This document shows, one piece after another, positions 1,451 through 64,000 of a stretch of 64,000 bases of DNA (within the stretch, counting starts at the first letter, position 1; each line of letters starts with the position of its first letter). Where the stretch lies: positions 220,286,001 to 220,350,000 of the forward strand of contig CM126204.1 of the NCBI GenBank assembly GCA_052327205.1, read 5' to 3'. The DNA comes from Somniosus microcephalus. Its lineage: Eukaryota. Position numbers and translations under genes: made by a program. The notes below the pieces were generated by a model. That model did no database searches. It was not told the origin of the DNA and was given only the letters and a program-made list of their open reading frames with translations.

Positions 1451-1650
1451 TGTTGTGTCGGTACCTTTCTACCTAGACACAATTTAGGACTCAGAACTCA
1501 GAGATTCAAACATGAAGTGCTTTATTGGAAGGAAAGGAAGTTCTGGCAAGTTCCGAACAAAGAGAGCTAAAACTTAACAGAGAACACCCAACCATTTATC
1601 TCCTATGACAGTGCCACCACAGGTGGGAGGAGAACACACAATACATAACA
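1451..1650 (-). repeat. 3' LTR of element A
   Basis: Direct repeat of 9639-9838; adjacent polypurine tract on the minus strand. Confidence 0.95.
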
Positions 1651-1745
1651 TTTCCTCCCCTCTTAAATGGAAGGTCCACATTATTCCTCAACAGGTAAGT
1701 TACTTTCAATGCACTCAACGAACCAAGGGTAGAGGTAGACTGCCA

Positions 1746-2010
1746 TGTTATGTTCATTAATAAATATACATTCTTATTCTGAACACAGCTAGCTTTTGCT
1801 AGACCTTTTATTGAGCACATGTGGACTAGGTACAGTATCTGTAGAGGCTTCCATCTTGACTGCTGCCTTGTGGGTAGCCTAGTGCCTCATGGGTAATGTA
1901 GTCTTACAGCTAGGTAGTGTAGTCTTATACATACAGCTATATACAGCTCTACACAGCTCTATGGCTCCACCTAATGTCCACTATAGAATGACATGTTATT
2001 GATCACTACA
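1746..2010 (-). repeat. 3' LTR of Gypsy element C
   Basis: TG...CA ends, minus-strand AATAAA, preceded on the minus strand by the PPT AAGAAAGGGGGA (2011-2022); no partner LTR in the window. Confidence 0.75.
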
Positions 2011-2157
2011 TCCCCCTTTCTTTGAGGTTTAACAAAATCAATATCAATCAACTTTCAAGAAAACAATAAAGATAATATCAGTAACACTTTTGTTAGTGCT
2101 CTATAAACATAAACATTTTCAAAACAGTCAACACATTTTCAAAGCTTTACATTGTAC

Positions 2158-3636
2158 TCAAATATTAAGTCTATCAGGCTTTTTTACTTCACGTGTGGAT
2201 CTTCTCAACACGGGTAAGTCTGATGTGTCTTCATGAGATTGTTCTGGCGGTGAATGACAAGATGCAGTTGCGGCATTGTCATCAATCTGTTCTTGTATAG
2301 ATCGAGGTCTCCTAGCGATCTTTGCTTGGAGAGGGTTTCAGTGTTTCCTTCACTCTTCATGCCATAACTCTCAATGTAGTCAATGCACTCTCGAAAAACC
2401 GCTGGCAGCTGGATCCCATCATACAGCATAGTCCTCTCAGCAGCCTCAGCTAATGGAACACCAAAGATTGGACTGAGGGAAGAAGGAGTATCCACCGGAA
2501 CTGCTTCCTGCTCTGCTGCAGGCTTCTTCTTTTTCTTTTTCTCTTTCCACTGCTTAACAACATCTGCTGCGGTTATATCTTTGGACTTTTTCTCCTTGTG
2601 TTTTTTCTCTTTGTGCTTTTCTTTGACCTTAAAGTCTTTTTCTTTATTCTTGGAGAAACTAGGCTTTTTGAAGACATGGATACCCTTTGGCCTTTCCATC
2701 CTTGATGGGCTCTCTGCTTCATCACCTGAGTCATCTGGTCTGCTTATGGCACAGTTTATACGGTAGACTCTCTTGACCAGTTCTAAGTCTTCACAAGCTT
2801 TGTCACCTAGTATCGAAATCAAGTCTTTCAGCCACAACAGAAAACATGAGATGATGCACTTTGTCTTTGACTGCCACTTTGAGTCTGCATACACCTAAGC
2901 TATCTATTTTCTGTCCATTATAGTCCTTCAGTAGTACTGACTTTTTCTCTATTTTGGGCTTTTCTTTCATATTGTTAATGTCACTCATACTGATTAAGTT
3001 TGCTTTTGCCCCAGTGTCCAGACTCAATGTAACTAATGCTCCATTTATCTGCAGTGGGATCATCCATTTGTCCACTTTTACTGCATTGACTTTATGTTCA
3101 GCATTGTCCATTTCTGAGGGCTGCACATTTTCTGTATCTTTTTTGATATCGTCACTTGACACCATTCCTACAAAAAATGTCTCACTTAAATCAGTGTCCT
3201 CAATCACATTAACTTGTTTCCCTTTCGTTGTTTTTACTTTTGAAAAGCATTGTTTGGCAAAGTGATTCTTTCCATTACATTTTGAGCACATTTTTCCAAA
3301 CGCTGGGCATTGTCTTAACTGGTGGTTGTAACCACAGTGTTTACAATTAAAAATTTCATCCTCCGATTGCTTTTCATTTCTGTTCTGCCCACGTTTCTTC
3401 CCCTTGTAGGACACAGCACCGACAGCAGCATTATCACTCATTACATTCGCATCATTATTGATTTCACTGAAAGTCTTCGCGTGCTTTTGAGCTAGCTCGC
3501 TGGCTTGGCATATTTTCACCGCATTTTCCAAATTTAGTTCGGTTTCTCTCAACAGACGTTCCCTGATGTTTTTATCATGAATACCAAACACAATCTGGTC
3601 ATGAATCATGGATGCTTTGAGCTCAGAGAAATTATG
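2158..3636 (-). pseudogene. Element C internal ORF: partial gag, Zn knuckle, protease, captured RALBP1 fragment, integrase C-terminal tail (frameshifted)
   Basis: MIHDQIVFGI gag; CSKCNGKNHFAKQC knuckle; LDTGA protease; SILGDKACEDLELVKRV protease end after a +1 frameshift near 2817; ends LRRSTREVKKPDRLNI-stop before the PPT. Confidence 0.8.
2346..2735 (-). pseudogene. RALBP1: Transduced RALBP1/RLIP76 fragment (Lys-rich region plus start of RhoGAP domain)
   Basis: SGDEAESPS...KGIHVFKKPSFSK...KSKDITAADVVKQWKEKKKKKKP...PIFGVPL...YDGIQLPAVFRECIDYIESYGMK matches vertebrate RALBP1 as recalled. Confidence 0.9.
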
Positions 3637-6204
3637 TGGAAGCGGATACTGCACCGTGTGAAGCACCGGATTAACAGTGATCTTGAAATCACCACGGATG
3701 CGAACCTTCCCCGGTTCCCCCGGCTTGTTGCTCGATGAACGCTTCATGACTGGGACAATGGGCGTGGCCCACTCACTCCAGTCTACCTTAGACAGTACTC
3801 CTGAACGTTCTAGCCCTTCCAGCTCAGCTTCCACAGCAGGTCGTATTGCATAAGGTACCGGTCTGGCTTTAAAAAATTTCGGGTTTGCATGTTCTTCAAT
3901 CTTGATGTTTGCCGTAATTCCTCTCAGTGTTCCCAGTCCTTGTTGGAACACCTCTTTAGCATCGTCCAATATTCTGGACAATCGTTTAGGTTTGACATCT
4001 TTTGTACCGGAATCTACCGTTAGTGCTTTTAAGGAATGCCAGTCCATATTTATTTTCCTAATCCACTCCCGTCCCAGTAGTGGTGGACCTCCCTCAGGTA
4101 GCACATATAAGTCCATTCCTCGGCTTTCTTTGCCCTTGTGGACCACCTTTACCTCTATCTTCCCGATGGGGTATACTCTTTGCCCCGTGTATGTTTTCAA
4201 TACAATCTCCGTATCCCGTAGGGGAATATGTGGGAATAACCTTTTGTAATCTTTCTTATTCATGACCGTCAATGCCGATCCAGTGTCCAATTCCATCTTC
4301 ACTTGGACTCCTGCTATCTGAAGTGTGACCCAAATTGTTTGGAGGTCTGCTTCCTTACCAACATTGTGTACTCTTAGACTACCCAGTTCATTACTGCTGG
4401 CGTCTGAATCTGACTTCTGTTCATTCGAACTGTTCTCTGTCACCTTGTGTACCTTTTTGTACTTTTCCTGCGGTGACTTTTTGTTGCTGGTCTTCTTTCC
4501 TGACCGGCATACTTTAGCTATGTGACCAAGCCTGCCACATTTTCTGCATTCCTGATTTTTGAACCAGCACTGGTTCTGATCGTGTGTTGTCTTTCCACAA
4601 CGATAACATTTTACTGTACTCAAGACCATTTGATTGGTACAGAGTTCCGGTGACCGTAGCTGCATTTCCGCAGTGCCTCTTGCTGCGGCTTCTTGCGATG
4701 CTGCAATAGTGACAGCTTTGTCAAGCGTAAGATCATTCTCTTCAAGCAGTCGCTTTTGTGTTCCTTCTTTTAACAATCCACACACAAATTTATCTCTCAG
4801 CGCATCTGCTAGCCCTGTCCCAAACTGACAGTACTTCATTGGCTTACGTAGTTCAATTAAAAATTCAGCGGTGCTTTCGTCTTTCAACTGCGTTCTTTTG
4901 TAAAATTTAAATCGTTCCGCTATCATCAGCGGCGTGGGGTTTAAATGATTTTTCAGGACAGTAACAATATTCGCGAAGGTCTGATCCGCCAGTTTAATTG
5001 GTGATAGAAGGTGCTTCAATAGCCCGTATGTCTTCGCCCCATTGAGCTTAATAAGGTTAATGCTTTCTCATCATCTGGTACCTTATTTGCTTTACAATAA
5101 ACTTCCATGCGTTCTACATATGTGGTCCAATCTTCGACATCACTATCAAAGGTATTAATGCTCCCATGTTTAGGCATCCTTGCAAGTTTTTAAATTTTTT
5201 TTTTTTAAATGGCGGCTTCCCGCGCTTGTCTTCTTCCCCCGCCTACTAAAATGGCGGCTTCCCGCGCTTGGCGGTCTTTCCCGCGCTCGTCTTCTTCCCC
5301 CGCCGACTACAATGGTGGATTCCCTCGTTTGACTTCTTCCCCCGCTGGCTGCAATGGCGATTGCCTTGCTGCTGCCGTTCTCACCTCCCCAGCGGTTCTC
5401 ACTCCCCGACGCTGCTTTGCCTTGCAGCCCCGCTTGCAGCCCGGTCCTTTACACCGGCTGTGTTTGATTTCTCCACGGCTCTCGTGCCTTAAGCTTCTCA
5501 ACTCCCCGACGCTGTTTTGCCTCGCAGCCCCGCTCGCAGCCCGCTACTGTACACCGGCTGCGTTTGAGTTCTCCGTGGCTCTCGAGCCTTAAGCTGCCCC
5601 AGTCGCTGCGCCTCTCGGCCTCGATTGCAGCCCGGGCCTTTCTACCGGCCGTGGTCGAGCTCTCCGCCCTTATTCCTCCGTTTTCCCTCCCCTACTCCAC
5701 AGTCAACGCGGCCGACTTTCTGCTCGTGTCGCTGATCAGCTTACCCACCACCGTGGTAGAAGGGATGAACACTGCCTGTCGCTGATGGAGGGCTTCGTGG
5801 TCAGAATTCTTTTTCTTTGTAACCCGGGTTCTCGATGCCTCCTGTGCGATGGTGCTCAGCAGGATGATGAGGGCGGATGCCTCTTCTCGACGCCCGTTTT
5901 GAGGACGAAGCTGCCTTGGATGTAAATTTGACGCAGGGTAAGATCGGACTCGTCGCCACTGTTGAGTCTGTATGTCCCAGTTAGGTTTAGGATCAATCAC
6001 TGGACACAGACAACAAGAATAACTTTTAACAGGTCTTTACTATTCGAAGGTCAGGGCTGAACTGCCCAGCAAATCCTTGCACAACACTTATATACCGGTG
6101 TGGTCACCACCGGTATTACAGTATTACAGTATACAGCAGCCAAGAGAAAGTAGTACACCTCTTAAGGTAGTTCTCTTAAGGTGGAACAGGTTACATACAC
6201 CACA
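3637..6204 (-). mobile_element. Gypsy element B (5' LTR, PBS, gag, protease, RT start), 3' part deleted; related to element D
   Basis: LTR 5960-6204; PBS TGGCGACGAG at 5949-5958; ATG at 5177 (MPKHGSI); CCHC knuckles; LDTGS protease; RT start WATPIVPV...GDFKITVN; gag closely resembles the ORF at 30139-32172. Confidence 0.88.
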
Positions 6205-6328
6205 GAATTGTTGTTTAAAAATCCGCCAATTGTAGTCGACATTTCCCTCGAAATTCAAATGCTCTGGTGGCTTCAAATTCTCCATGTCGCTTTTCACAAT
6301 TTTCAGCAGACATGGGGAACATGTTTTG
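6205..6328 (-). mobile_element. 5' remnant of element C (leader and gag N-terminus), interrupted by element B
   Basis: Minus strand reads MENLKPPEHLNFEGNVDYNWRIFKQQF, a typical Gypsy gag start, ending exactly at the B LTR. Confidence 0.7.
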
Positions 6329-6643
6329 GCACGGTGGCATAGTGGTTAGCACTGTTGCCTCACAGCGCCAGGGACCCGGGTTCGAATCCGGCCTCGGGTG
6401 ACTGTCTGTGTGGAGTTTGCACATTCTCCCCGTGTTTGCGTGGGTTTCCTTCGGGTGCTCCGGTTTCCTCCCACAGTCCAAAGATGTGCGGGTTAGGTTG
6501 ATTGGCTATGATAAATTGACCCTTAGTGTTAGGGGGATTAAATACGTGTGGCTACGGGGATAGGGTGGGATATGTGTTGGTGCAGGCTCGATGGGCTGAA
6601 ATGGCCTCTATCTACACTGTGGGGTTTCTGTGATTCTGTGATT
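6329..6643 (+). mobile_element. HE1-like V-SINE
   Basis: tRNA head, V-domain TGGAGTTTGCACATTCTCCCCGTG...TCCGGTTTCCTCCCACAGTCCAAAG, (TTCTGTGA)n CR1-type tail; very similar copy at 11401-11726. Confidence 0.9.
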
Positions 6644-8301
6644 CCCATCGAGACCTGGCCACCAGAAGTAGCTTTTTGCCATTTCCTTCATCCGAACCAT
6701 CCCACTGTGGCCTGTATGAAGTTGTTGCAGTATAGGTTCCCTCAGAGGTGGCGGAATGATGACACGGCATCCCCAAAGAAGACAACCTGCCTGGACGGAG
6801 AGCTCATTTCTTTTTGAAACGTAAGGTTTCAAACTAGGAGAATCTCCTATCGCTCTCCCTCGAATGACATCGTCCATTACCTCAGACAGGACTGGATCGT
6901 TGCGGGTGTACCTTCGCACCTGAACTGCAGTGACAGGTGCTCCCTCCACTTGTCTAAAGTGGAAGATGTCGATCTGACGAGGCTCTGGGGGAGTAACAGG
7001 CAAGGGTAGCCTCGAGAGACCGTCTGCGTTGCCGTGCAAGTCTAATTTGCGATATTTGAAGTCGTATGTGTGTCCTGACAACAGTAAAGCCCACCTTTGC
7101 ATCCTGCTTGCAGCGAGAGACGGAATTCCGGTGTGGGGCCCGAAGATTGAAGTCAATGGACGGTGGTCCGTCAGGAGTGTGAACCTTCTCTCAAACAGGT
7201 ACTAATGAAATTTTCGAATTCCAAAAACGATTCACAAGGCCTCGCGCTCGATCTGCGCATAGTTACTCTCGGCCTTGTTCAAGGTGCGTGATGCGAAGGC
7301 GATAGGTTTCTCTTCACCCGAAGGCATGATGTGGGATATGACTGCACCCACACCATATGGTGATGCATCACATGCTCGCTGCACTGGTAGCTTTGGGTCG
7401 AAGTGTGTCAGGACCTCCGAATTCAGCAATGCTTTCTTTGCTTGGGCGAAAGCTTCGTTGCACAGTTCAGTCCATTTCCATGTTTTGCCTTGACATAGCA
7501 ACTGATGTAATGGCTTCAGCAATGTTGCTAAGTCTGGAATAAACTTCCCATAGTAGTTAAGTAGCCCCAGAAATGAACGTAACTGGCTCACATTCTGGGG
7601 TGCTGGGGCCTCCACGATCGCCTTGACCTTTGACGGCGCCTTATGCAGGCCAGTAGCGTCAATCACATGCCCCAGGTACTCAACTGAAGACTGAAAGAAT
7701 TCACATTTGTCTTTATGAACTCTGAGTCCGTACTCTTTCAGTCGTTGTAGTGTTGCATCCAAGTTCAGAAGATGATCCTCCTCATTTGTCCCAGTGACAA
7801 GGATGTCGTCCAGGTAGCACTGGACTCCTGGCAGTCCACTCAAAATCTGATCCATTGCCCTTTGGAATAGAGCAGGGGCCGACGCAATTCCAAACGGAAG
7901 GCGGCAGTACCTGTATAGCCCCTTGTGTGTCACAATTGTCAGCAGCTCCTTTGATTTGTCATCGACATGCATTTGTAGATAAGCCTGGAATAAGTCTATT
8001 TTGCTGAACTTTTGCCCTCCGGCCAGGCCCGTAAAAGATCATCAATGAGGGGAAGAGGGTACTGTTCCACAGACAGCACCGGGTTAATAGTCACTTTAAA
8101 ATCCCCACAGATTCGAACAGATCCATCCTTTTTCAGGACAGGAACAATGGGTGTGGCCCATTTGCTCACGCTCACAGGCTCCAGGACTCCATTCTCGACT
8201 AAGGCCTCCAAGTTAGCCTCAACTTTTGGCCTAATTGCATCGGGTACAGGTCGGGCTTTGTGAAACTTCGGCTTGCTGTCAGGTTTAATGTCCAGTCTCA
8301 C
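6644..8301 (-). pseudogene. Element A pol (RT, RNaseH, start of integrase), frameshifted and truncated
   Basis: RLPFGIASAP, YLDD, RNaseH DAS...NYAQIEREAL, integrase HH region LHTGHSG...YFWWPGLD; truncated at the SINE. Confidence 0.9.
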
Positions 8302-9560
8302 GCTGAACTTTTCATGCTCCCAAGTTCCCCATTGAAAAGTTCTGCATGTTTGTTTAACACTGCAGTCAGACCTGACTCCCCTTTTGACATCATGCAGACT
8401 GCAGGCCAGTCTAGCGTGATTTTCTCTAGCCTCGCACGTCCCAGTAGCGATGGGTAATTTCCCTTTACCACATATAGTGGCAGTTTTGCAGTCTGTCCGT
8501 TCAATTTAACTGTCACCTCAATGATGCCTCTCATGGCCACAGGTTTGCCAGTATACGTCTTTAGCACAATGTTTGTTGGCTGAAGGGTAAGATGCTTTAG
8601 CATTTTGTTGCAGACAGTGTCTGAAACAAGGGACACAGCCGCGCCTGTGTCCACCTCCATCCGCACTGATTTTCCCTCCACCAGTGGTGACACCCAGTAG
8701 CCATTTGAACCACCTGCAACCGTCAGTATGTGCACCTCTTCCTCCTCAGAGGTGTCGCTCCCCTCTGTTTTGCTTGTTCCATCATACTGCACTGAATGAA
8801 CACTCTTTTTCCTCTCTTGTCCAAATACAGACATTTTGCTTCCATGCTTCCCAGCTCTGTCTGTTCTTTTTGTACCTCTACAGGCGCGTTCAATGTGACC
8901 CTTTTTGCCACAATTTCGGCATTCCAGCTCCGTACACCAGCAGTCATTAGCGTGATGGCCCGTTTTCCCACAACGGTAACATGTGCCGTTCCGCGCACCT
9001 TTAGGCTCAGACGACACCTTGTGAACTCTCCCTGTTGAACTCAGCTGGTGAGCCTCCTTTTCCGCCTTCTCCATGGAGACACTAACTTCAATGGCCTTTT
9101 CAAGAGTAAGGTTGTCCTCAGTAAGAAGGTGCTTCTGTGTGGCTGCATTTTGCAGACCACACACCAGCCTGTCTCTAATGGTGTCATTCAGCACCTCCTT
9201 GAACTGGCAGTGTTCCGACAACCTTTTTAAAGCAGCAATAAACATCGTCACTGATTCCCCCTCCTCTTGATTCTGTTTGTGAAATCTAAATCTCTCAGCA
9301 ATAACCAAAGTTTTTGGTGAAAAATGTGCTCCAAGAATTTCCACTAGTTGCTTATATGTTTTAGTTCCTGGCTTATCTGGCTGCACGAGGCTGCAAAGTA
9401 AATTGAAAGTCTTCGGCCCGATTACACTCAAAAAGGTAGGCACGACCTTTTCATTTGCCACCGCATTCGCCAATACAAAATAGTCAAAACGTTCCGTATA
9501 TGCGCTCCATTGCTCCACATTTTCATCAAAATCACCGATGTTTCCTAATATAGTAGCCAT
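8298..9560 (-). pseudogene. Element A gag-protease
   Basis: ATG at 9560; IAERFRF...IRDRLVCGL gag; two CCHC knuckles; VDTGA protease. Confidence 0.9.
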
Positions 9561-9638
9561 CTCACGGTTCAAATTAAATTTTCTGTTTACTCACTGCACC
9601 CGTAATGTACGCAGATTCATCCGCTCCTCATTGCCACT

Positions 9639-9838
9639 TGTTGTGTCGGAACCTTTCTACCAAGACACAATTTAGGACTCAGAACTCAGAGATTCAAACA
9701 TGAAGTGCTTTATTGGAAGGAAAGGAAGTTCTGGCAAGTTCCGAACAAAGAGAGCTAAAACTTAACAGAGAACACCCAACCATTTATCTCCTGTGACAGC
9801 GCCACCACAGGTGGGAGGAGAACACACAATACATAACA
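9639..9838 (-). repeat. 5' LTR of element A
   Basis: Direct repeat of 1451-1650, adjacent to the PBS. Confidence 0.95.
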
Positions 9839-11174: not shown

Positions 11175-11985
11175 ACAACAACTTGCATTTATATAGCACC
11201 TTTAACGTAGTAAAATGTCCCAAGGTGCATTACAGGAGGGTTATCAGGCAAAATTTGACACCGAGCCACATGAGAAGATATTAGAACAGGTCAAAGAAGT
11301 AGGTTTTAAGGTGCTTCTTAAAGGAGGAGAGAGAGGCAGAGTGGTTTAGGGAGGGAATTACAGAGCTGAGGGCCCAGGCAGCTGTAGGCACGGCCGCCAA
11401 TCACAGAATCACAGAAACCCCACAGTGCAGATAGAGGCTATTTCGGCCCATCGAGCCTGCACCGACACATATCCTACCCGATCCCTGTAACCCCTACACC
11501 AACACATATCCCACCCTATCCCCCTAACGGTCAATTTATCATAGCCAATCAACCTAACCCACACATCTTTGGACTGTGGGAGGAAACCGGAGCTCCCGGA
11601 GAAAACCCACGCAAACACGGGGAGAATGTGCAAACTCCACACAGACCGTCACCCGAGGCCGGATTCGAACCCGGGTCCCTGGCTCTGTGAGGCAACAGTG
11701 CTAACCACTATGCCACCGTGCTGCCCAATGGTGGAGCAATTAAAATTGGGGATGCACAAGAGGCCAGATTTGGAGAAGCGCAGAGATCTCGGAGGGCTGT
11801 AGGACGGGAGGAGGTTACAGAGGTAGAGAGGGGCGAAGCCGTGGAGGGAATTTGAACACAAGGATGAGAATTTTAAAATCAAGTTGTTGCTGGAGCAGGT
11901 GGCAATGTAGGTCAGTGAGCACAGGGGTGAGGGGTGAACTGAACTTGGTGCGAGTTAAGATACAGGCAGCAGAGTTTTGGATGGT
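11175..11985 (-). mobile_element. L2/CR1-group LINE 3' fragment containing a V-SINE
   Basis: Reverse-complement similarity to 1190-1450 and 9844-10065. Confidence 0.8.
11401..11726 (-). mobile_element. HE1-like V-SINE
   Basis: Reverse complement of 6329-6643; flanked by a short CCAAT-like duplication. Confidence 0.9.
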
Positions 11986-44619: not shown

Positions 44620-45909
44620 ATTATTCAGCCCTTAGGAGAAATGTGAGTTAAGATGAGCTAGAAAGGACAGAATTCTAGGCATCTGGTGCTTGACAATCCT
44701 TAATCGATGTCTTTGAAGAATAGTGACCAGAATAGATAAAGGGAATGCAGTGACACTATGTGGTTCATGTGAATTATCAAAAAGCATTGATGGGGTCTCC
44801 GAGGAGACTTATGAAAGGATAATTGCGCATGGAATTAATGGCAGTGTGATCACATGGATAGAGAGATGGTTGGGGGTCAGAAAGCAAATGCTAGGGGTAA
44901 TAAAATGTTTCTCAAGCAGTGAAGATGTAATGAGTACACAGGCAAAATACTGTGGATGCTGGAAATCTGAAATATAAACATAAAATGCTCAAAATACTCA
45001 GCAGGTCAAACAGCATCTGTTCCACAGGAATCTGGGCTGGGGACTTATTTATGATATAAAATATAAATGATCCAGACTTGGAAATTGAGAGAATAATATT
45101 TGCTAATGAAGCTAAATTGGAGGGCGTGTGGCAAATTGTGAGGATTGCAAAAGACTGCAGGAGGACATAGGCAGTCTCGTAAGATGGGCAGGTAGATGGA
45201 GGATGCAGTTCAATGCAGAGAAATTTTTGGCAGATTATTCCACATTCTCACTGCCCTCTGTGTAAAGAAATATTTTTAAATTTCCCCTTATTCCTGTTTG
45301 TGATCATCTTAAATTAGTGGCCTTAACATCTCCCCAACCCATTTGGGAAATAAGAACAGGGATTGGAAATCCATCTTCGTGGTTAGAGTTGAAACACTGT
45401 AGAGGAGCAGAGGTTTGTGGGTCACTAAAGGAAGCAGTCCAAGTAGATAAGAATATAAAAAAGGCAAACAGAATCTTTGACTATGTATCTACAAGCAGAG
45501 AATACAAAAGCAAGGAAGTAATATTGAGTTCAGCCAATTCCTGAGTCAAGACCTCAGTGCAAGAGCTAAATTAGGCTGCAATTGGAGTTTTCTGCACAGT
45601 TTTGGACACCAATGATATGAAGGGTATAAATGTAATGGACAAGGTGTAGCATAGATTCACCAGGATGTCACCAGGGATGAAAAGAAAAGGAGCTTGAAAA
45701 GGTAGGTTTTTTTCTAACAGGGGCTGAGAAGGTCGAGGTCCTCCAGATTATAAAAGGTTCTGAGCAGGTAAATAGTGATCGATGGTTTCCATTGGTTGGG
45801 GAGATGTTAAGGACACCAATTTAAGATGATCACAAACAGGAATAAGGGGAAATTTAAAACATTTCTTTACACAGAGGGCAGAGAGAATGTGGAATAATCT
45901 GCCAAAAAT
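44620..45909 (+). mobile_element. Degenerate CR1 LINE RT and 3' remnant with internal inverted duplication
   Basis: TRIDKGNAV, AHGINGSVITWIERWL, KKANRIF...EYKSKEVIL, FFTQRAERMWNNLP. Confidence 0.8.
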
Positions 45910-48900
45910 GAATGCAGGAGAGAAGGATTAGACTAGGTGCAATATTAAAGAGAATGGGGAGTGAGCAGGAGAGGAGGATTAGACAGGGTGTGAGCAAAAG
46001 AGAATGGGGAGTGAGCAGGAGAGGAGGTTTAGACTGGGTGCGATATTAAAGAGAATGGGGAGTGAGCAAGAGAGGAGGATTAGACTGGGTGTGATATTAA
46101 AGAGAATGGGGAGTGAGCAGGAGAGGAGCATTAGACTGGGTGTGATATTAAAGAGAATGGGGAGTGAGCAGGAGAGAAGGATTAGACTGGGTGTGATATT
46201 AAAGAGAATGGGGAGTGAGCCGGAGAGGCGGATTAGACTGGGTGTGATATTAAAGAGAATGGGGAGTGAGCAGGAGAGGGTGATTAGACTGGGTGTGATA
46301 TTAAAGAGAATGGGGAGTGAGCAGGAGAGGAGGGTTAGACTGGGTGTGATATTAAAGAGAGTGGGGAGTGAGCATGAGAGGAGGATTAGACTGGGTGTGA
46401 TATTAAAGAGAATGGGGAGTGAGCAGGAGAGAAGGATTAGACTGGGTGTGATATTAAAGAGAATGGGGAGTGAGCAGCAGAGGAGGATTAGAATGGGTGT
46501 GATATTAAAGAGAATGTGGAGTGAGCAGGAGAGGAGGATTAGACTGGGTGTGATATTAAATAGAATGGGGAGTGCGCAGGAGAGGAGGGTTAGACTGGGT
46601 GTGATATTAATGAGAATGGGGTGTGAGCAGGAGAGGAGGATTAGACTGGGTGTGATATTAAAGAGAATGGGGAGTGCGCAGGAGAGGAGGATTAGACTGG
46701 GTGTGATATTAAAGAGAGTGGGGAGTGAGCAGGAGAGGAGGATTAGACTGGGTGTGATATTAATGAGAATGGGGTGTGAGCAGGAGAGGAGGATTAGACT
46801 GGGTGTGATATTATTGAGAATGGGGTGTGAGCATGAGAGGAGGATTAGACTGGGTGTGATATTATTGAGAATGGGGAGTGAGCAGGAGAGGAGGATTAGA
46901 CTGGGTGTGATATTAAAGAGAATGGGAAGTGAGCAGGAGAGGATGATTAGACTGGGTGTGATATTATTGAGAATGGGGAGTGAGCAGGAGAGAAGGATTA
47001 GACTGGGTGTGATATTATTGAGAATGGGGTGTGAGCGGGAGAGGAGGATTAGACTGGGTGTGATATTAAAGATAATGGGGAGTGAGCAGGAGAGAAGGAT
47101 TAGACTGGGTGTGATATTAAAGATATTGGGGATAGTGCAGGAGTGGAGGATTAGACTGGGTGTCATATTAAACAGAATGGGGAGTGAGCAGGAGAGGAGG
47201 ATTAGACTGGGTGTGATATTAAAGAGAATGTGGAGTGAGCAGGAGAGGAGGATTAGACTGGGTGTGATATTAAAGAGAGTGGGGAGTGAGCAGGAGGAGG
47301 AGGATTAGACTGGGTGTGATATTAAAGAGAGTGGGGAGTGAGCAGGAGAGGAGGATTAGACTGGGTGTGATATTAACGAGAATGGGGAGTGAGCAGGAGA
47401 GGAGGATTAGACTGGGTGTGATATTAATGAGAATGGGGAGTGAGCAGGAGAGGAGGATTAGACTGGGTGTGATATTAATGAGAATGGGGAGTGAGCAGGA
47501 GAGGAGGATTAAACTGGGTGTGATATTAATGAGAATGGGGAGTGAGCAGGAGAGTAGGATTAGACTGGGTGTGATATTAAACAGAATGGGGAGTGAGCAG
47601 GAGAGGAGGATTAGACTGGGTGTGATATTAAAGGGAGTGGGGAGTGAGCAGGAGTGGAGGATTAGACTGGGTGTGATATTAATAAGAATGGGGAGTGCGC
47701 AGGAGAGGAGAATTAGAATGGGTGTGATATTAATGAGAATGGGGAGTGAGCAGGAGAGGAGGATTAGATTGGGTGTGATATTAATGAGAATGGGGAGTGA
47801 GCAGGAGAGGAGGATTAGACTGGGTGTGATATTAATGAGAATGGGGAGTGAGCAGGAGAGGAGGATTAGACTGGGTGTGATATTAAAGGGAATGAGGAGT
47901 GAGAAGGAGAGAAGGATTAGACTGGGTGTGATATTAAAGAGAATGAGGAGTGAGCAGGAGAGGAGGATTAGACTGGATGTGATATTAAAGGGAATGAGGA
48001 GTGAGAAGGAGAGAAGGATTAGACTGGGTGTGATATTAAAGAGAATGAGGAGTGAGCAGGAGAGGAGGATTAGACTCGGTGTGATATTCAAGAGAATGAG
48101 GAGTGAGCAGGAGAGGAGGATTAGACTGGGTGTGATATTAAAGAGAATGTGGAGTGAGCAGGAGAGGAGGGTTAGACTGGGTGTGATATTAATGAGAATG
48201 GGGTGTGAGCAGGAGAGGAGGATTAGACTGGGTGTGATATTAAAGAGAATGGGGAGTGAGCAGGAGAGGAGGGTTAGACTGGCTGTGATATTAATGAGAA
48301 TGGGGTGTGAGCAGGAGAGGAGGATTAGACTGGGTGTGAAATTATTGAGAATGGGGAGTGAGCAGGAGAGGAGGATTAGACTGGGTGTGATATTAAAGAG
48401 AATGGGGAGAGAGCAGGAGAGGAGGATTAGACTGGGTGTGATATTAAAGAGAATCGGGAGTGAGCAGGAGAGAAGGATTAGACTGGGTGTGATATTAAAG
48501 AGAATGGGGAGTGAGCAGGAGAGGAGGATTAGACTCGGTGTGATATTAAAAAAAATGGGGTGGGAGCAGGAGAGGAGGATTAGACTGGGTGTGATATTAA
48601 AGAGAATGGGGAGTGAGCAGGAGAGGAGGATTAGACTGGGTGTGATATTAAAGAGAATGGGGAGTGAGCAGGAGAGGAGGATTAGACTGAGTGCAATATT
48701 AAAGAGAATGGGGAGTGAGCACGAGAGAAGGATTAGACTGGGTGTGATATTAAAGAGAGTGGGGAGTGAGCAGGAGAGGAGGATTAGACTGGGTGTGATA
48801 TTAAAGAGAATGGGGAGTGAGCAGGAGAGGAGGATTAGATTGGGTGTGATATTAAAGAGAATGGAGAATGAGCAGGAGAGGAGGATTAGACTGGGTGCGA

Positions 48901-51900
48901 TATTTAAGAGAATGGGGAGTGAGCAGGAGAGGAGGATTAGACTGGGTGTGATATTAAAGAGAATGGGGAGTGAGCAGGAGAGGAGAATTAGAATGGGTGT
49001 GTTATTAAAGAGAATGGGGAGTGAGCAGGAGAGGAGGATTAGACTGGGTGTGTTATTAAAGAGAATGGGGAGTGAGCAGGAGAGGAGGATTAGACTGGGT
49101 GTGATATTAAAGAGAATGAGGAGTGAGCAGGAGAGGAGGATTAGACTGGGTGTGATATTAAAGAGAATGGGGAGTGAGCAGGAGAGGAGGATTAGACTGG
49201 GTGTGTTATTAAAGAGAATGGGGAGTGAGCAGGAGAGGAGGATTAGACTGGGTGTGATATTAAAGAGAATGGGGAGTGAGCAGGAGAGGAGGATTAGACT
49301 GGGTGTGATATTAAAGAGAATGGGGAGTGAGCAGGAGAGGAGGATTAGACTCCGTGTGATATTAAAGTGAATGGAGAATGAGCAGGAGAGGAGGATTAGA
49401 CGGGGTGTGATATTAAAGAGAATGCGGAGTGAGCAGGAGAGGAGGATTAGACTGGGTGTGATATTGAAGAGAATGGGGAGTGAGCAGGAGAGGAGGATTA
49501 GACTCCGTGTGATATTAAAGAGAATGGAGTGTGAGCAGGATAGGAGGATTAGACTGCGTGTGATATTAAAGAGAATGGGGTGTGAGCAGGAGAGGAGGAT
49601 TAAACTGGGTGTAATATTAAAGAGAATGGGGAGTGAGCAGGAGAGGAGGATTAGACTCGGTATAATATTAAAGAGAATGAGGTGTGGGCAGGAGAGGAGG
49701 ATTAGACTGGGTGCGATATTAAAGAGAATGGGGAGTGAGCAGGAGAGGAGGATTAGACTGGGTGTGATATTAATAAGAATGGGGAGTGCGCAGGAGAGGA
49801 GAATTAGAATGGGTGTGATATTAATGAGAATGGGGAGTGAGCAGGAGAGGAGGATTAGACTGGGTGTGATATTAATGAGAATGGGGAGTGAGCAGGAGAG
49901 GAGGATTAGACTGGGTGTGATATTAATGAGAATGGGGAGTGAGCAGGAGAGGAGGATTAGACTGGGTGTGATATTAAAGGGAATGAGGAGTGAGAAGGAG
50001 AGAAGGATTAGACTGGGTGTGATATTAAAGAGAATGAGGAGTGAGCAGGAGAGGAGGATTAGACTGGGTGTGATATTAAAGGGAATGAGGAGTGAGAAGG
50101 AGAGAAGGATTAGACTGGGTGTGATATTAAAGAGAATGAGGAGTGAGCAGGAGAGGAGGATTAGACTGGGTGTGATATTAATAAGAATGGGGAGTGCGCA
50201 GGAGAGGAGAATTAGAATGGGTGTGATATTAATGAGAATGGGGAGTGAGCAGGAGAGGAGGATTAGACTGGGTGTGATATTAATGAGAATGGGGTTTGAG
50301 CAGGAGAGGAGGATTAGACTCGGTGTGATATTCAAGAGAATGAGGAGTGAGCAGGAGAGGAGGATTAGACTGGGTGTGATATTAAAGAGAATGTGGAGTG
50401 AGCAGGAGAGGAGGGTTAGACTGGGTGTGATATTAATGAGAATGGGGTGTGAGCAGGAGAGGAGGATTAGACTGGGTGTGATATTAAAGAGAATGGGGAG
50501 TGAGCAGGAGAGGAGGGTTAGACTGGCTGTGATATTAATGAGAATGGGGTGTGAGCAGGAGAGGAGGATCAGACTGGGTGTGAAATTATTGAGAATGGGG
50601 AGTGAGCAGGAGAGGAGGATTAGACTGGGTGTGATATTAAAGAGAATGGGGAGTGAGCAGGAGAGGAGGATTAGACTGGGTGTGATATTAAAGAGAATCG
50701 GGAGTGAGCAGGAGAGAAGGATTAGACTGGGTGTGATATTAAAGAGAATGGGGAGTGAGCAGGAGAGGAGGATTAGACTCGGTGTGATATTAAAAAAAAT
50801 GGGGTGGGAGCAGGAGAGGAGGATTAGACTGGGTGTGATATTAAAGAGAATGGGGAGTGAGCAGGAGAGTGGGATTAGACTGGGTGTGATATTAAAGAGA
50901 ATGAGGTGTGAGCAGGAGAGGAGGATTAGACTGGGTGTGATATTAAAGAGAATGGGGTGTGAGCAGGAGAGGAGGATTAGACTGGGTGTGATATTAAAGA
51001 GAATGGGGAGTGAGCAGGAGAGGAGGATTAGACTGAGTGCAATATTAAAGAGAATGGGGAGTGAGCACGAGAGAAGGATTAGACTGGGTGTGATATTAAA
51101 GAGAGTGGGGAGTGAGCAGGAGAGGAGGATTAGACTGGGTGCGATATTAAAGAGAAAGAGGTGTGAGCAGGAGAGGAGGATTAGATTGGGTGTGATATTA
51201 AAGAGAATGGAGAATGAGCAGGAGAGGAGGATTAGACTGGGTGCGATATTTAAGAGAATGGGGAGTGAGCAGGAGAGGAGAATTAGAATGGGTGTGTTAT
51301 TAAAGAGAATGGGGAGTGAGCAGGAGAGGAGGATTAGACTGGGTGTGTTATTAAAGAGAATGGGGAGTGAGCAGGAGAGGAGGATTAGACTCCGTGTGAT
51401 ATTAAAGTGAATGGAGAATGAGCAGGAGAGGAGGATTAGACGGGGTGTGATATTAAAGAGAATGCGGAGTGAGCAGGAGAGGAGGATTAGACTGGGTGTG
51501 ATATTGAAGAGAATGGGGAGTGAGCAGGAGAGGAGGATTAGACTGGGTGTGTTATTAAAGAGAATGGGGAGTGTGCAGGAGAGGAGGATTAGACTCCGTG
51601 TGATATTAAAGAGAATGGAGTGTGAGCAGGATAGGAGGATTAGACTGCGTGTGATATTAAAGAGAATGGGGTGTGAGCAGGAGAGGAGGATTAAACTGGG
51701 TGTAATATTAAAGAGAATGGGGAGTGAGCAGGAGAGGAGGATTAGACTCGGTATAATATTAAAGAGAATGAGGTGTGGGCAGGAGAGGAGGATAAGACTG
51801 GGTGTGTCTTTAAAGAGAATGGGGTGTGAGCAGGATAGGAGGATTAGACTGGGTGTGATATTAAAGAGAATGTGGAGTGAGCAGGAGAGGAGGATTAGAC

Positions 51901-54900
51901 TCGGTGTGATATTAAAGAGAATGAGGTGTGGGCAGGAGAGGAGGATTAGACTGGGTGCGATATTAAAGAGAATGGGGAGTGAGCAGGAGAGAAGGAATAG
52001 ACTGGGTTTGATATTAAGGAGAATGGGGAGTGAGCAGGAGAGGAGGATTAGACAGGGTGTGATATTAAAGAGAATGAGGAGTGAGCAGGAGAGGCGGATT
52101 AGACTGGGTGTGATATTAAAGAGAATGGGGAGTGAGCAGGAGAGAAGGATTAGATTGGGTGTGATATTCAAGAGAATGGGGAGTGAGCAGCAGAGGAGGA
52201 TTAGACTGGGTGTGATATTAAAGAGAATGTGGAGTGAGCAGGAGAGGAGGGCTAGGCTGGGTGTGATATTAAATAGAATGGGGAGTGCGCAGGAGAGTAG
52301 GGTTAGACTGGGTGTGATATTAATGAGACTGGGGAGTGAGCAGGAGAGGAGGATTAGACTGGGTGTGATATTAAAGAGAATGGGGAGAGCGCAGGAGAGG
52401 AGGGTTAGACTGGGTGTGATATTAATGAGAATGGGGTGTGAGCAGGAGAGGAGGATTAGACTGGGTGTGATATTAAAGAGAGTGGGGAGTGAGCAGGAGA
52501 GGAGGATTAGACTGGGTGTGATATTATTGAGAATGGGGAGTGAGCAGGAGAGAAGGATTAGACTGGGTGTGATATTATTGAGAATGGGGAGTGAGCAGGA
52601 GAGGAGGATTAGACTGGGTGTGATATTAAAGAGAGTGGGGAGTGTGCAGGAGAGGAGGATTAGACTGGGTGTGATATTAAAGAGAGTGGGGAGTGAGCAG
52701 GAGAGGAGGATTAGATTGGGTGTGATATTAAAGAGAATGGGCAGTGAGCAGGAAAGGAGGATTAGACTGTGTGTGATATTAAAGAGAGTGGGGATAGAGC
52801 AGGAGTGGAGGATTAGATAGGGTGTCATATTAAAGAGAATGGGGAGTGAGCAGGAGAGGAGGATTAACCTGGGTGTGATATTAAAGAGAATGGGGAGTGA
52901 GCAGGAGAGGAGGATTTGACTGGGTGTGAAATTAAAGAGAATGTGGAGTGAGCAGGAGAGGAGGATTAGACTGGGTGTGATATTAAAGAGAATGTGGAGT
53001 GAGCAGGAGAGGAGGATTAGACAGCGTGCGATATTAAAGAGAATGGGGAGTGAGCAGGAGAGGAGGATTAGACTGGGTGTGATATTAAAGAGAATGAGGT
53101 GTGAGCAGGAGAGGAGGATTAGACTGGGTGTGATATTAAAGAGAATGGGGTGTGAGCAGGAGAGGAGGATTAGACTGGGTGTGATATTAAAGAGAATGGG
53201 GAGTGAGCAGGAGAGGAGGATTAGACTGAGTGCAATATTAAAGAGAATGGGGAGTGAGCACGAGAGAAGGATTAGACTGGGTGTGATATTAAAGAGAGTG
53301 GGGAGTGAGCAGGAGAGGAGGATTAGACTGGGTGCGATATTAAAGAGAAAGAGGTGTGAGCAGGAGAGGAGGATTAGATTGGGTGTGATATTAAAGAGAA
53401 TGGAGAATGAGCAGGAGAGGAGGATTAGACTGGGTGCGATATTTAAGAGAATGGGGAGTGAGCAGGAGAGGAGGATTAGACTGGGTGTGATATTAAAGAG
53501 AATGGGGAGTGAGCAGGAGAGGAGAATTAGAATGGGTGTGTTATTAAAGAGAATGGGGAGTGAGCAGGAGAGGAGGATTAGACTGGGTGTGTTATTAAAG
53601 AGAATGGGGAGTGAGCAGGAGAGGAGGATTAGACTCCGTGTGATATTAAAGTGAATGGAGAATGAGCAGGAGAGGAGGATTAGACGGGGTGTGATATTAA
53701 AGAGATTGCGGAGTGAGCAGGAGAGGAGGATTAGACTGGGTGTGATATTGAAGAGAATGGGGAGTGAGCAGGAGAGGAGGATTAGACTGGGTGTGTTATT
53801 AAAGAGAATGGGGAGTGTGCAGGAGAGGAGGATTAGACTCCGTGTGATATTAAAGAGAATGGAGTGTGAGCAGGATAGGAGGATTAGACTGCGTGTGATA
53901 TTAAAGAGAATGGGGTGTGAGCAGGAGAGGAGGATTAAACTGGGTGTAATATTAAAGAGAATGGGGAGTGAGCAGGAGAGGAGGATTAGACTCGGTATAA
54001 TATTAAAGAGAATGAGGTGTGGGCAGGAGAGGAGGATTAGACTGGGTGCGATATTAAAGAGAATGGGGAGTGAGCAGGAGAGGAGGAATAGACTGGGTGT
54101 GAAATTAAAGAGAATGGGGAGTGAGCAGGAGAGGAGGGTTAGACTGGGTGTGATATTAAAGAGAATGGGGAGTGAGCAGGAGAGGAGGATAAGACTGGGT
54201 GTGTCTTTAAAGAGAATGGGGTGTGAGCAGGATAGGAGGATTAGACTGGGTGTGATATTAAAGAGAATGAGGTGTGGGCAGGAGAGGAGGATTAGACTGG
54301 GTGCGATATTAAAGAGAATGGGGAGTGAGCAGGAGAGGAGGATTAGACTCCGTGTGATATTAAAGAGAATGGAGTGTGAGCAGGATAGGAGGATTAGACT
54401 GCGTGTGATATTAAAGAGAATGGGGTGTGAGCAGGAGAGGAGGATTAAACTGGGTGTAATATTAAAGAGAATGGGGAGTGAGCAGGAGAGGAGGATTAGA
54501 CTCGGTATAATATTAAAGAGAATGAGGTGTGGGCAGGAGAGGAGGATTAGACTGGGTGCGATATTAAAGAGAATGGGGAGTGAGCAGGAGAGGAGGAATA
54601 GACTGGGTGTGAAATTAAAGAGAATGGGGAGTGAGCAGGAGAGGAGGGTTAGACTGGGTGTGATATTAAAGAGAATGGGGAGTGAGCAGGAGAGGAGGAT
54701 AAGACTGGGTGTGTCTTTAAAGAGAATGGGGAGTGAGCAGGAGAGGAGGATTGGACTCGGTGTGATATTAAAGAGAATGAGGTGTGGGCAGGAGAGGAGG
54801 ATTAGACTGGGTGCGATATTAAAGAGAATGGGGAGTGAGCAGGAGAGAAGGAATAGACTGGGTTTGATATTAAGGAGAATGGGGAGTGAGCAGGAGAGGA

Positions 54901-63900: not shown

Positions 63901-64000
63901 AGAGAATGGGGAGTGAGCAGGAGAGGAGGATTAGACTGGGTGTGATATTAATGAGAATGGGGAGTGAGCAGGAGAGGAGGATGAGACTGGGTGTGATATT
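45910..64000. repeat. 51-bp tandem satellite, about 355 units, running off the window end
   Basis: Consensus GACTGGGTGTGATATTAAAGAGAATGGGGAGTGAGCAGGAGAGGAGGATTA; diagnostic variants recur at multiples of 51 bp. Confidence 0.98.

What the first reader, a model, noticed from the sequence alone, without database searches (positions are those of the whole stretch)
1746..3636. A second, unrelated Gypsy element with RALBP1 coding sequence in place of pol
Seen: element C runs gag, knuckle, protease (..SILGDKACEDLELVKRVYRIN) directly and in frame into about 130 aa that I recognise as RALBP1. An integrase-type tail (RRSTREVKKPDRLNI), the PPT and an LTR follow. Removing one base near 2817 restores a continuous Gag-PR-RALBP1 frame. 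The fragment covers the Lys-rich basic region and stops at about the start of the RhoGAP catalytic motif (EGIYRVSG), so it should not be an active GAP. Inference: the basic segment could serve as a nucleic-acid-binding or nuclear-localisation module.
Basis: partly seen in the sequence, partly recalled or inferred. Interest (0 to 1): 0.8.

Follow-up and report, generated by a model that had tools for sequence, protein, structure and literature searches.

The report
Shark retrotransposon carrying RALBP1 gene pieces
A jumping-gene family in a shark genome swapped its copying enzymes for two pieces of the host gene RALBP1 and still multiplied to about 2,800 copies with the help of its parent family; such gene capture is known, but this scale in a vertebrate is unusual, and no function of the captured piece is shown.

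Summary
The window holds a broken, nested copy of a 2.6-kb non-autonomous Gypsy element. In it, about 2.5 kb of pol is replaced by RALBP1 sequence. The genome (a cartilaginous fish) has 2,841 matches to the Gypsy/RALBP1 junction and 6,646 to the parent's junction.

Copies have two LTRs (49 of 60), 5-bp target-site duplications and median LTR divergence of 1.7%. The insert has two pieces, not one: 384 nt of one exon, in frame behind Gag-PR, and 55 nt of the last exon, out of frame. The three joins sit on 5-, 7- and 2-nt microhomologies, which points to reverse-transcriptase template switching onto host mRNA. The integrase tail is out of frame with the fusion. The catalytic GAP arginine is missing.

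Gag-PR flanks recombined with the parent family, while the RALBP1 piece has a single origin. RNA reads cover the piece, mostly in sense. I found no sign of selection on it: mutations after insertion look neutral, and shared variants are too few to test. Best reading: a captured passenger in a short, helper-dependent parasite. A known mechanism at an unusual scale.

The parts
1746..2010 (-). 3' LTR of the RALBP1-carrying element (TG...CA)
   Evidence: Matches both LTRs of other copies
2011..2022 (-). Polypurine tract
   Evidence: Sequence; same word before the 3' LTR in other copies
2158..2298 (-). 3' end of the parent's integrase coding region (..RRSTREVKKPDRLNI*). The fusion frame reads across it in another frame and stops at 2205-2207
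   Evidence: parent copies match from here on
2299..2353 (-). Second RALBP1 piece: last 55 nt of the coding sequence, cut at the stop codon, out of frame; joined to the integrase tail over a 2-nt microhomology
   Evidence: present in 58 of 60 sampled copies
2347..2730 (-). First RALBP1 piece (about residues 93-230 of the host protein): Lys/Glu-rich disordered region, poly-Lys stretch and start of the RhoGAP domain, without the arginine finger. 7-nt microhomology GTGAAGG at 2347-2353; 5-nt microhomology CTCAG at 2726-2730; in frame with Gag-PR
2731..3060 (-). Aspartyl protease and PR-RT linker; frame broken near 2817 in this copy
   Evidence: Pfam PF13975/PF13650; open in other copies
3061..3634 (-). 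3' part of gag with two Cys/His knuckles
   Evidence: 25 of 29 other loci match 1746-3634 in one piece at 93-97%
6205..6310 (-). Displaced start of the element's gag; the 5' LTR and PBS are lost in this copy
   Evidence: 87-98% match to the gag start of other copies
3637..6204 (-). Context: a different Gypsy element (LTR, gag, PR, start of RT) inserted in the element's gag and truncated
   Evidence: absent from other copies
1451..9838 (-). Context: outer Gypsy element, LTRs 1451-1650 and 9639-9838 (98% alike), TSD CTAAG, into which the others are nested

Best explanation
This is a non-autonomous Ty3/Gypsy derivative made once by reverse-transcriptase template switching inside a virus-like particle that held both parent RNA and RALBP1 mRNA. 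Read in sense, the switch points are: parent PR-RT linker to a RALBP1 exon (CTCAG), that exon to the last exon (GTGAAGG), and the last exon to the parent's integrase tail (CT). The product kept both LTRs, the PBS, the PPT and gag-PR, and lost RT, RNase H and most of IN. It is 2.6 kb against the parent's 4.65 kb. It was then copied to about 2,800 sites with RT and IN from the parent family, being co-packaged with parent RNA and exchanging gag-PR segments with it. The RALBP1 piece most likely rides along as an in-frame, stop-free filler; short length and intact cis signals would explain the spread. Shown: structure, junctions, copy number, TSDs, single origin, allele sharing with parents. Inferred: mRNA template, trans-complementation, passenger status.
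For: Eight of 20 loci found with the integrase tail are longer (about 4.4-4.7 kb) parents that match the chimera up to the 5' junction and from the 3' junction on. One parent frame reads PR-RT-RNaseH-IN. Junction microhomologies of 5, 7 and 2 nt; the middle join lies 18 nt before the exon's end and links sites 38 kb apart in the host gene. Junction counts 2,841 and 2,797 against 6,646 for the parent, controls 0. 49 of 60 chimeras have two LTRs and 36 a 5-bp TSD; median LTR divergence 1.7%, parents 2.2% (20 pairs of 40, one spurious). Variants shared by 3 or more chimeras are also polymorphic among 40 parents: 71 of 92 in gag, 19 of 26 in PR; r2 falls from 0.27 to 0.05 with distance. The RALBP1 piece has only 4 shared variants and the lowest pairwise distance, 1.8% against 2.4-4.4%. 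Single-copy N:S is near neutral in all regions.
Against: The join is in frame (1 in 3 by chance) and source copies kept the frame open. Only this one derivative was seen at such numbers, though other deletion derivatives were not counted. The test for selection in the active lineage has no power (4 shared variants). No retained exon-exon junction proves an mRNA template. An earlier, unchecked scan note describes a second Gypsy family with a host fragment (RBM25) in place of pol at high copy number, so capture with amplification may not be accidental.
Confidence: 0.72

Rival explanations
1. The RALBP1 piece works as protein for the element: a polybasic, disordered tail on Gag-PR (or released by PR at the old PR-RT boundary) that helps particle assembly, RNA binding, membrane or nuclear targeting, and so favoured this derivative.
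For: In-frame fusion at the PR-RT linker. Length changes shared among copies are multiples of 15 nt. 30% of junction-bearing family members are chimeras. Sense RNA covers the piece. The region is polybasic and proposed to bind membranes (PMC8124665, passages). Chimera-only shared variants in gag-PR lean synonymous, 9 S to 11 N against 61 to 260 for single-copy ones, which hints that the element made its own Gag-PR.
Against: The 15-nt losses lie in an EEKHK repeat whose length also varies among host orthologues. Non-fixed shared changes in the piece are 3 N to 2 S. No depletion of frameshifts. The gag-PR signal may come from parents that were not sampled (40 of 6,646).
Confidence: 0.12
2. The piece acts as RNA: it shields the element from silencing or makes small RNAs that hit host RALBP1, as TART does with nxf2 in Drosophila.
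For: About 2,800 copies, median 2.0% from the host exon. At 4 of 4 testable sites the element and a separate processed piece agree against the host gene; one is I to L at a residue that is I in the 7 database orthologues aligned. Captured fragments are linked to higher copy number in telomeric elements (PMC13534243, passages).
Against: RALBP1 is not known to me as a silencing gene. A host-side change of the same kind also lies in the next exon, outside the captured piece (1 in about 76 nt). All five changes are A/T to G/C in the host, which fits GC-biased conversion or an older allele. The processed piece may not be an independent outgroup. No small-RNA data were seen.
Confidence: 0.1
3. One copy has been domesticated as a Gag-PR-RALBP1 host gene.
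For: 15 of 60 copies have an open frame. One RNA run is strongly sense-biased over the piece.
Against: Single-copy changes are neutral. No fusion protein among the 120 listed of 354 hits or 62 hits. The window copy is broken and truncated.
Confidence: 0.04
4. A processed RALBP1 pseudogene was inserted later into this one Gypsy copy, or the structure is an assembly artefact.
For: A processed RALBP1 piece does exist elsewhere in the genome, and the window is a nest of three elements.
Against: About 2,800 copies share the same junctions. No poly(A) or TSD around the insert. Pol is replaced, not interrupted. Contigs of another run cover the piece at multi-copy depth.
Confidence: 0.01

Closest known systems
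LTR-mediated retrocopies of animals (Tan et al. 2016, PMC5131818; abstract, passages and Discussion read)
   Same: Partial mRNA copy inside a discontinuous LTR element, microsimilarity at switch points, several switches, sense orientation and in-frame reading, co-transcription, capacity for secondary retroposition.
   Different: The cases read are single or few copies. Here there are about 2,800, with gag-PR kept as one frame with the host piece and recombination with the helper. The paper's supplementary tables were not read and may list higher copy numbers.
Maize Bs1 (as described in PMC5131818 and PMC13317346, passages)
   Same: LTR element with host gene segments inside, some in frame and some out of frame, all copies sharing switch points.
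   Different: Bs1 has 1-5 copies, three donor genes and is reported as translated. Here one donor gene, thousands of copies, translation untested.
Drosophila telomeric TART/nxf2, piwi and aub captures (PMC13534243, passages)
   Same: Host coding fragment fixed in a multi-copy retroelement; link with higher copy number.
   Different: Those are non-LTR elements, the fragments are 140-235 bp, donors are mostly piRNA genes, and piRNA targeting was measured. None of that is shown here.
Acutely transforming retroviruses with gag-onc fusions (recalled, no call)
   Same: A host signalling gene fused in frame behind gag in place of pol, dependent on a helper.
   Different: No env or infection, germline amplification of a Gypsy element, catalytic residue absent, no effect on cells known.

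Membership tests
Ty3/Gypsy LTR retrotransposon (parent family) | pol order PR-RT-RNaseH-IN | tested here: met
   Pfam on one parent copy, single gag-pol frame
Ty3/Gypsy LTR retrotransposon (parent family) | TG...CA LTRs, PBS, PPT, short TSD | tested here: met
   5-bp TSD in 36 of 49 two-LTR chimeras and 12 of 20 parents; the primer tRNA was not identified
Ty3/Gypsy LTR retrotransposon (parent family) | RT phylogeny and clade | not tested
   No RT tree was built
Non-autonomous LTR element | Lacks RT, RNase H and IN core but keeps cis signals | tested here: met
Non-autonomous LTR element | Contemporary autonomous partner with shared LTR and gag | tested here: met
   6,646 parent junctions, similar LTR ages, shared alleles; many parent copies are themselves broken
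LTR-mediated retrocopy (Tan et al. 2016) | Partial host mRNA flanked by a discontinuous LTR element | tested here: met
LTR-mediated retrocopy (Tan et al. 2016) | Microsimilarity at switch points; no poly(A) or TSD around the insert | tested here: met
   5, 7 and 2 nt; the 2-nt match alone is no more than chance
LTR-mediated retrocopy (Tan et al. 2016) | Intron loss showing an mRNA template | tested here: inconclusive
   Two exonic pieces 38 kb apart are joined with no intron sequence, but no exon-exon junction is retained
LTR-mediated retrocopy (Tan et al. 2016) | Co-transcription with the element | tested here: inconclusive
   Continuous, mostly sense depth across the junctions in one of two RNA runs; junction-spanning reads are not counted directly
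LINE-made processed pseudogene | Poly(A) tail and TSD around the insert | tested here: not met
Domesticated gag-derived gene or functional retrogene | Purifying selection on a fixed copy | tested here: not met
   Pooled single-copy N:S near neutral in 60 of about 2,800 copies; one constrained copy elsewhere is not excluded
Anti-silencing capture (TART/nxf2 type) | Antisense small RNAs from the piece target the donor gene | not testable with these tools
   No small-RNA run was offered
Anti-silencing capture (TART/nxf2 type) | Donor gene diverges faster in the captured region | tested here: inconclusive
   4 host-side changes in about 270 nt inside and 1 in about 76 nt outside
gag-onc transducing retrovirus | Enveloped, infectious helper | tested here: not met
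   Parents are about 4.65 kb with one gag-pol frame and no further frame of 150 aa or more in the two copies listed
RhoGAP | Arginine finger and GAP fold | tested here: not met
   The piece ends at ..MKSEG, before IYR (PMC8124665)

The most novel reading that the evidence does not exclude
The captured RALBP1 segment was co-opted by the element itself, either as a polybasic tail on Gag-PR or as an RNA that draws host silencing onto RALBP1. That would explain why this one derivative reached about 2,800 copies and would make it a germline Gypsy counterpart of gag-onc transduction. With the RBM25 case noted elsewhere in the scan, it could mark a recurring route in vertebrates by which Gypsy parasites gain charged host segments.
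Probability: 0.2. Interest if true: 0.85.

Novelty: new variant of a known kind. Interest (0 to 1): 0.57.

Why it matters
Gene capture by LTR elements in animals is described mostly from single or few copies. Here a captured, in-frame piece of a Ral effector became about 30% of a large Gypsy family, so the genome holds about 2,800 near-copies of one RALBP1 exon, some transcribed. Thousands of dated copies with a single-origin insert and recombining flanks allow a direct test of whether a captured host fragment raises transposon fitness, a question left open in the Drosophila work. They also give a rare record of helper co-packaging in a vertebrate germline. In practice the copies will disturb RALBP1 annotation, read mapping and knock-down design in these sharks.

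Tried and rejected
Later pseudogene insertion and assembly artefact: rejected.

Cryptic splicing as the source of the middle join: unlikely, because the join lies 18 nt before the real GT donor and sits on a 7-nt shared word. A weak GC donor is not fully excluded.

The copy lying 24 kb upstream of the host gene's ATG exon as the birthplace of the chimera: rejected. It has its own TSD (GTAAC), sits in another Gypsy gag, and carries the derived 30-nt loss. By my hand estimate one copy per 100 kb is expected about 4% of the time.

A second high-copy RALBP1-capturing family: a pattern at the shared flank of two processed pieces found 1 match.

Low diversity of the RALBP1 piece as a sign of constraint: rejected, because single-copy mutation density equals that of PR and the excess in gag-PR is shared with parents.

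The 754-aa frame 2803-5067 as a gene: it is a chance join of two elements.

Protein databases: no Gag-PR-RALBP1 fusion among the 120 listed of 354 hits (347-1106 aa) or 62 hits (125-401 aa).

One search listed no RNA holder in its index, which says nothing about expression.

Literature: RALBP1 + Gypsy gave 1 unrelated paper; two searches gave none; searches listed nothing on this family. Repeat libraries (Repbase, Dfam) could not be searched.

A maximum-likelihood tree failed for memory; FastTree was used. Scripts were unavailable, so later tallies are by hand. No fold or complex prediction was run.

Full report
Observation. On the minus strand, window 3634-2731 encodes the 3' part of a gag, two Cys/His knuckles and an aspartyl protease (Pfam gag-asp_proteas E 3.6e-6). 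One frame, 2894-2205 (229 aa), runs from the end of the protease into RALBP1. The only PDB hit is RalBP1 2mbg_A (E 1e-18), and the five best of 354 database hits are RALBP1 of cartilaginous fishes at 80-85%, so the host is most likely a shark or ray. The frame is broken near 2817 in this copy. The 3' LTR is 1746-2010 and the PPT 2011-2022.

The window copy is a ruin. It lies inside an outer Gypsy element (LTRs 1451-1650 and 9639-9838, 98% alike, TSD CTAAG). Its gag start is displaced to 6205-6310 by a third element (3637-6204) and a deletion of about 287 nt, and its 5' LTR is gone. The 754-aa frame 2803-5067 is a chance join of two elements.

It is a family. A DNA search of the own genome (6.4 Gb) with the RALBP1 piece gave 584 candidates; all 40 scored matched at 98% or more. 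25 of the 29 other loci fetched match window 1746-3634 in one piece. Junction words, with up to 2 mismatches, occur 2,841 times (5' join) and 2,797 times (3' join); the parent's PR-RT junction occurs 6,646 times; reversed controls gave 0. I took the first 60 chimeric and 40 parent-type places listed on contig C1 (exact junction matches, the first parent place skipped because it lay near the contig start and was not needed). 49 of 60 chimeras have two LTRs and a script found a 5-bp TSD in 36; median LTR divergence is 1.7% (IQR 1.0-2.2). Among parents, 20 of 40 gave LTR pairs (one spurious), 12 a TSD, median 2.2%. At the epaulette-shark rate of 7e-10 per base per generation (PMC10587355, passages; wide interval) this is of the order of ten million generations, a rough hand estimate. 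15 of 60 chimeras still have an open frame of 560 aa or more.

Parent and donor. Eight of 20 loci found with the integrase tail are longer elements (about 4.4-4.7 kb) that match the chimera up to the 5' join and again from the 3' join. One parent frame reads PR, RT, RNase H, IN, the Ty3/Gypsy order, and is 92% identical to a chimeric copy over 461 aa up to ..RPDDS. The host RALBP1 gene lies on C7 at about 32.29-32.33 Mb.

Three joins. (1) Parent to RALBP1 exon over CTCAG, inside the exon and in frame. (2) That exon to the last exon over GTGAAGG, 18 nt before the splice donor; the two sites are 38 kb apart in the gene; the frame shifts relative to RALBP1. (3) Last exon, cut at its stop codon, to the parent's integrase tail over CT. 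The integrase tail is not in the fusion frame, which ends in about 47 new residues. The first piece covers the disordered, Lys/Glu-rich and poly-Lys region and stops four residues before the arginine of EGIYR, the arginine finger in PMC8124665 (passages). It cannot be a GAP. This anatomy fits the template-switch model of Tan et al. (PMC5131818; abstract, passages, Discussion read). No exon-exon junction is retained, so the mRNA template is inferred.

One capture, then mixing with the helper. Against the host exon, copies differ at 5 near-fixed sites and most (53 of 60) lack one 15-nt repeat unit; the window's subfamily lacks two. Pairwise distance among chimeras is 1.8% in the RALBP1 piece, 2.4% in the integrase tail and 3.3-4.4% in gag-PR, and chimeras and parents mix in the gag-PR trees. 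Of variants shared by 3 or more chimeras, 71 of 92 in gag and 19 of 26 in PR are also polymorphic among the 40 parents, and r2 falls from 0.27 (under 100 nt) to 0.05 (over 700 nt). This is what co-packaging with parent RNA would leave.

Selection. Non-CpG single-copy changes, N to S: gag 148:42, PR 130:26, RALBP1 90:27, new tail 23:5, close to the site ratios of about 4:1. Inserted copies therefore decay freely. Shared changes lean synonymous in PR (8:12, Fisher p 7e-5) and weakly in gag (32:18, p 0.065), mostly by inheritance from parents. The RALBP1 piece has 4 shared variants, too few to test. Distinct frameshifts are not depleted there (11 in 372 nt; PR 17 in 483; gag 16 in 786). Against the passenger reading: the join is in frame, source copies kept the frame open, and chimera-only shared variants in gag-PR are 9 S to 11 N, though only 40 parents were sampled.

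Other species and RNA. One search listed 24 runs; ten of three organism labels hold 0.34-0.49 of the words. Four were laid on one natural copy. Contigs of organism C cover the RALBP1 piece at summed depths of 3,000-7,400. Organism D covers gag-PR and the integrase tail but has no depth over 1826-2101 and shows parent-type loose ends, so it seems to hold the parent only; contigs show presence, not absence. Two RNA runs of organism B (one study) cover the piece. In X23 depth is 181-310 in the direction that means sense in most stranded libraries against 8-33, with no drop at the 5' join (370, 324, 336) and 76 parent-type loose ends there. No host-type loose end or host-type base is among the rows shown, but 293 and 297 rows were not shown and human-like reads are filtered out. 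X24 is lower and weakly stranded (81-147 against 46-92), as read-through from introns would give. Transcription of chimeras is likely; translation is untested; organism B need not be the window's species.

Host-side changes. A processed RALBP1 piece on C35 agrees with the element against the host gene at 4 of 4 testable sites, one being I to L at a residue that is I in all 7 database orthologues aligned. A fifth such change lies in the next exon, outside the captured piece. All are A/T to G/C in the host. Escape from small-RNA targeting, as for nxf2 and TART (PMC13534243, passages), is possible; biased gene conversion or an older allele is simpler.

Comparison and novelty. The mechanism is known: LTR-mediated retrocopies in fly, mosquito, zebrafish, chicken and mammals, and maize Bs1 with 1-5 copies (PMC5131818; PMC13317346, passages). 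I found no paper on this family: RALBP1 + Gypsy gave one unrelated paper, none, and nothing on it. The library lacks most subscription journals, repeat databases were not searchable, and the supplements of Tan et al. were not read. The likeness to gag-onc retroviruses is recalled, not checked. An unchecked note from this scan (e1-7809224) reports a Gypsy family with RBM25 in place of pol in another genome; look-ups by sequence and place found nothing.

Verdict. A real, well-resolved case of host-gene capture by a Gypsy element, amplified to about 2,800 copies as a helper-dependent parasite. New variant of a known kind. Capture and amplification are close to certain; passenger status about 0.72; a role for the piece as protein or RNA about 0.2. 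Interest 0.57.

Noticed in passing
L066:1-3072 and L065:9713-10000 (G000:C7, about 24 kb upstream of the RALBP1 ATG exon): A chimeric copy lies beside its own donor gene on the same strand, inside another Gypsy gag, with TSD GTAAC and a 745-nt insertion at the middle join. It looks like a secondary insertion; whether it is in intron 1 was not determined.
   Followed up: partly
L070:4203-4568 and L071:4740-4820: Two processed RALBP1 pieces on C35 and C36 (one with a spliced exon junction) end at the same place and share a 3' flank of unknown repeat type: a second, low-copy RALBP1 retrocopy lineage.
   Followed up: partly
L063:3044-3454 (host RALBP1 exon): The host gene carries L where all 7 aligned orthologues, the element and the processed piece have I (DGIQLP), plus several A/T to G/C synonymous changes.
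   Followed up: partly
window 45869-64000: A large tandem array of a 51-nt unit, about 350 copies at about 95% identity, with extreme GC skew (about 0.8), running to the window's end.
   Followed up: no
window 5200-5670: The leader of the middle Gypsy element holds GC-rich internal repeats of about 54-61 and 100 nt.
   Followed up: no
window 6329-6643 and 11399-11721: Two copies of a short interspersed repeat in opposite orientation, 91-96% alike, one next to the lost 5' end of the element.
   Followed up: no
L152, L159, L177, L186 and L164-L167, L174 (parent copies): Several parent copies break at the same pol positions (about 3057 and 2904 of the reference parent), some with an insertion of 700-900 nt; L158 and L181 share an internal deletion. 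Further non-autonomous subfamilies may exist.
   Followed up: no
L125:2203-2267: In both RNA runs many reads cover only this stretch of the integrase tail, with parent-type sequence before it and an unrelated AC-rich sequence behind it (300 and 146 reads): probably a separate expressed chimeric transcript.
   Followed up: no
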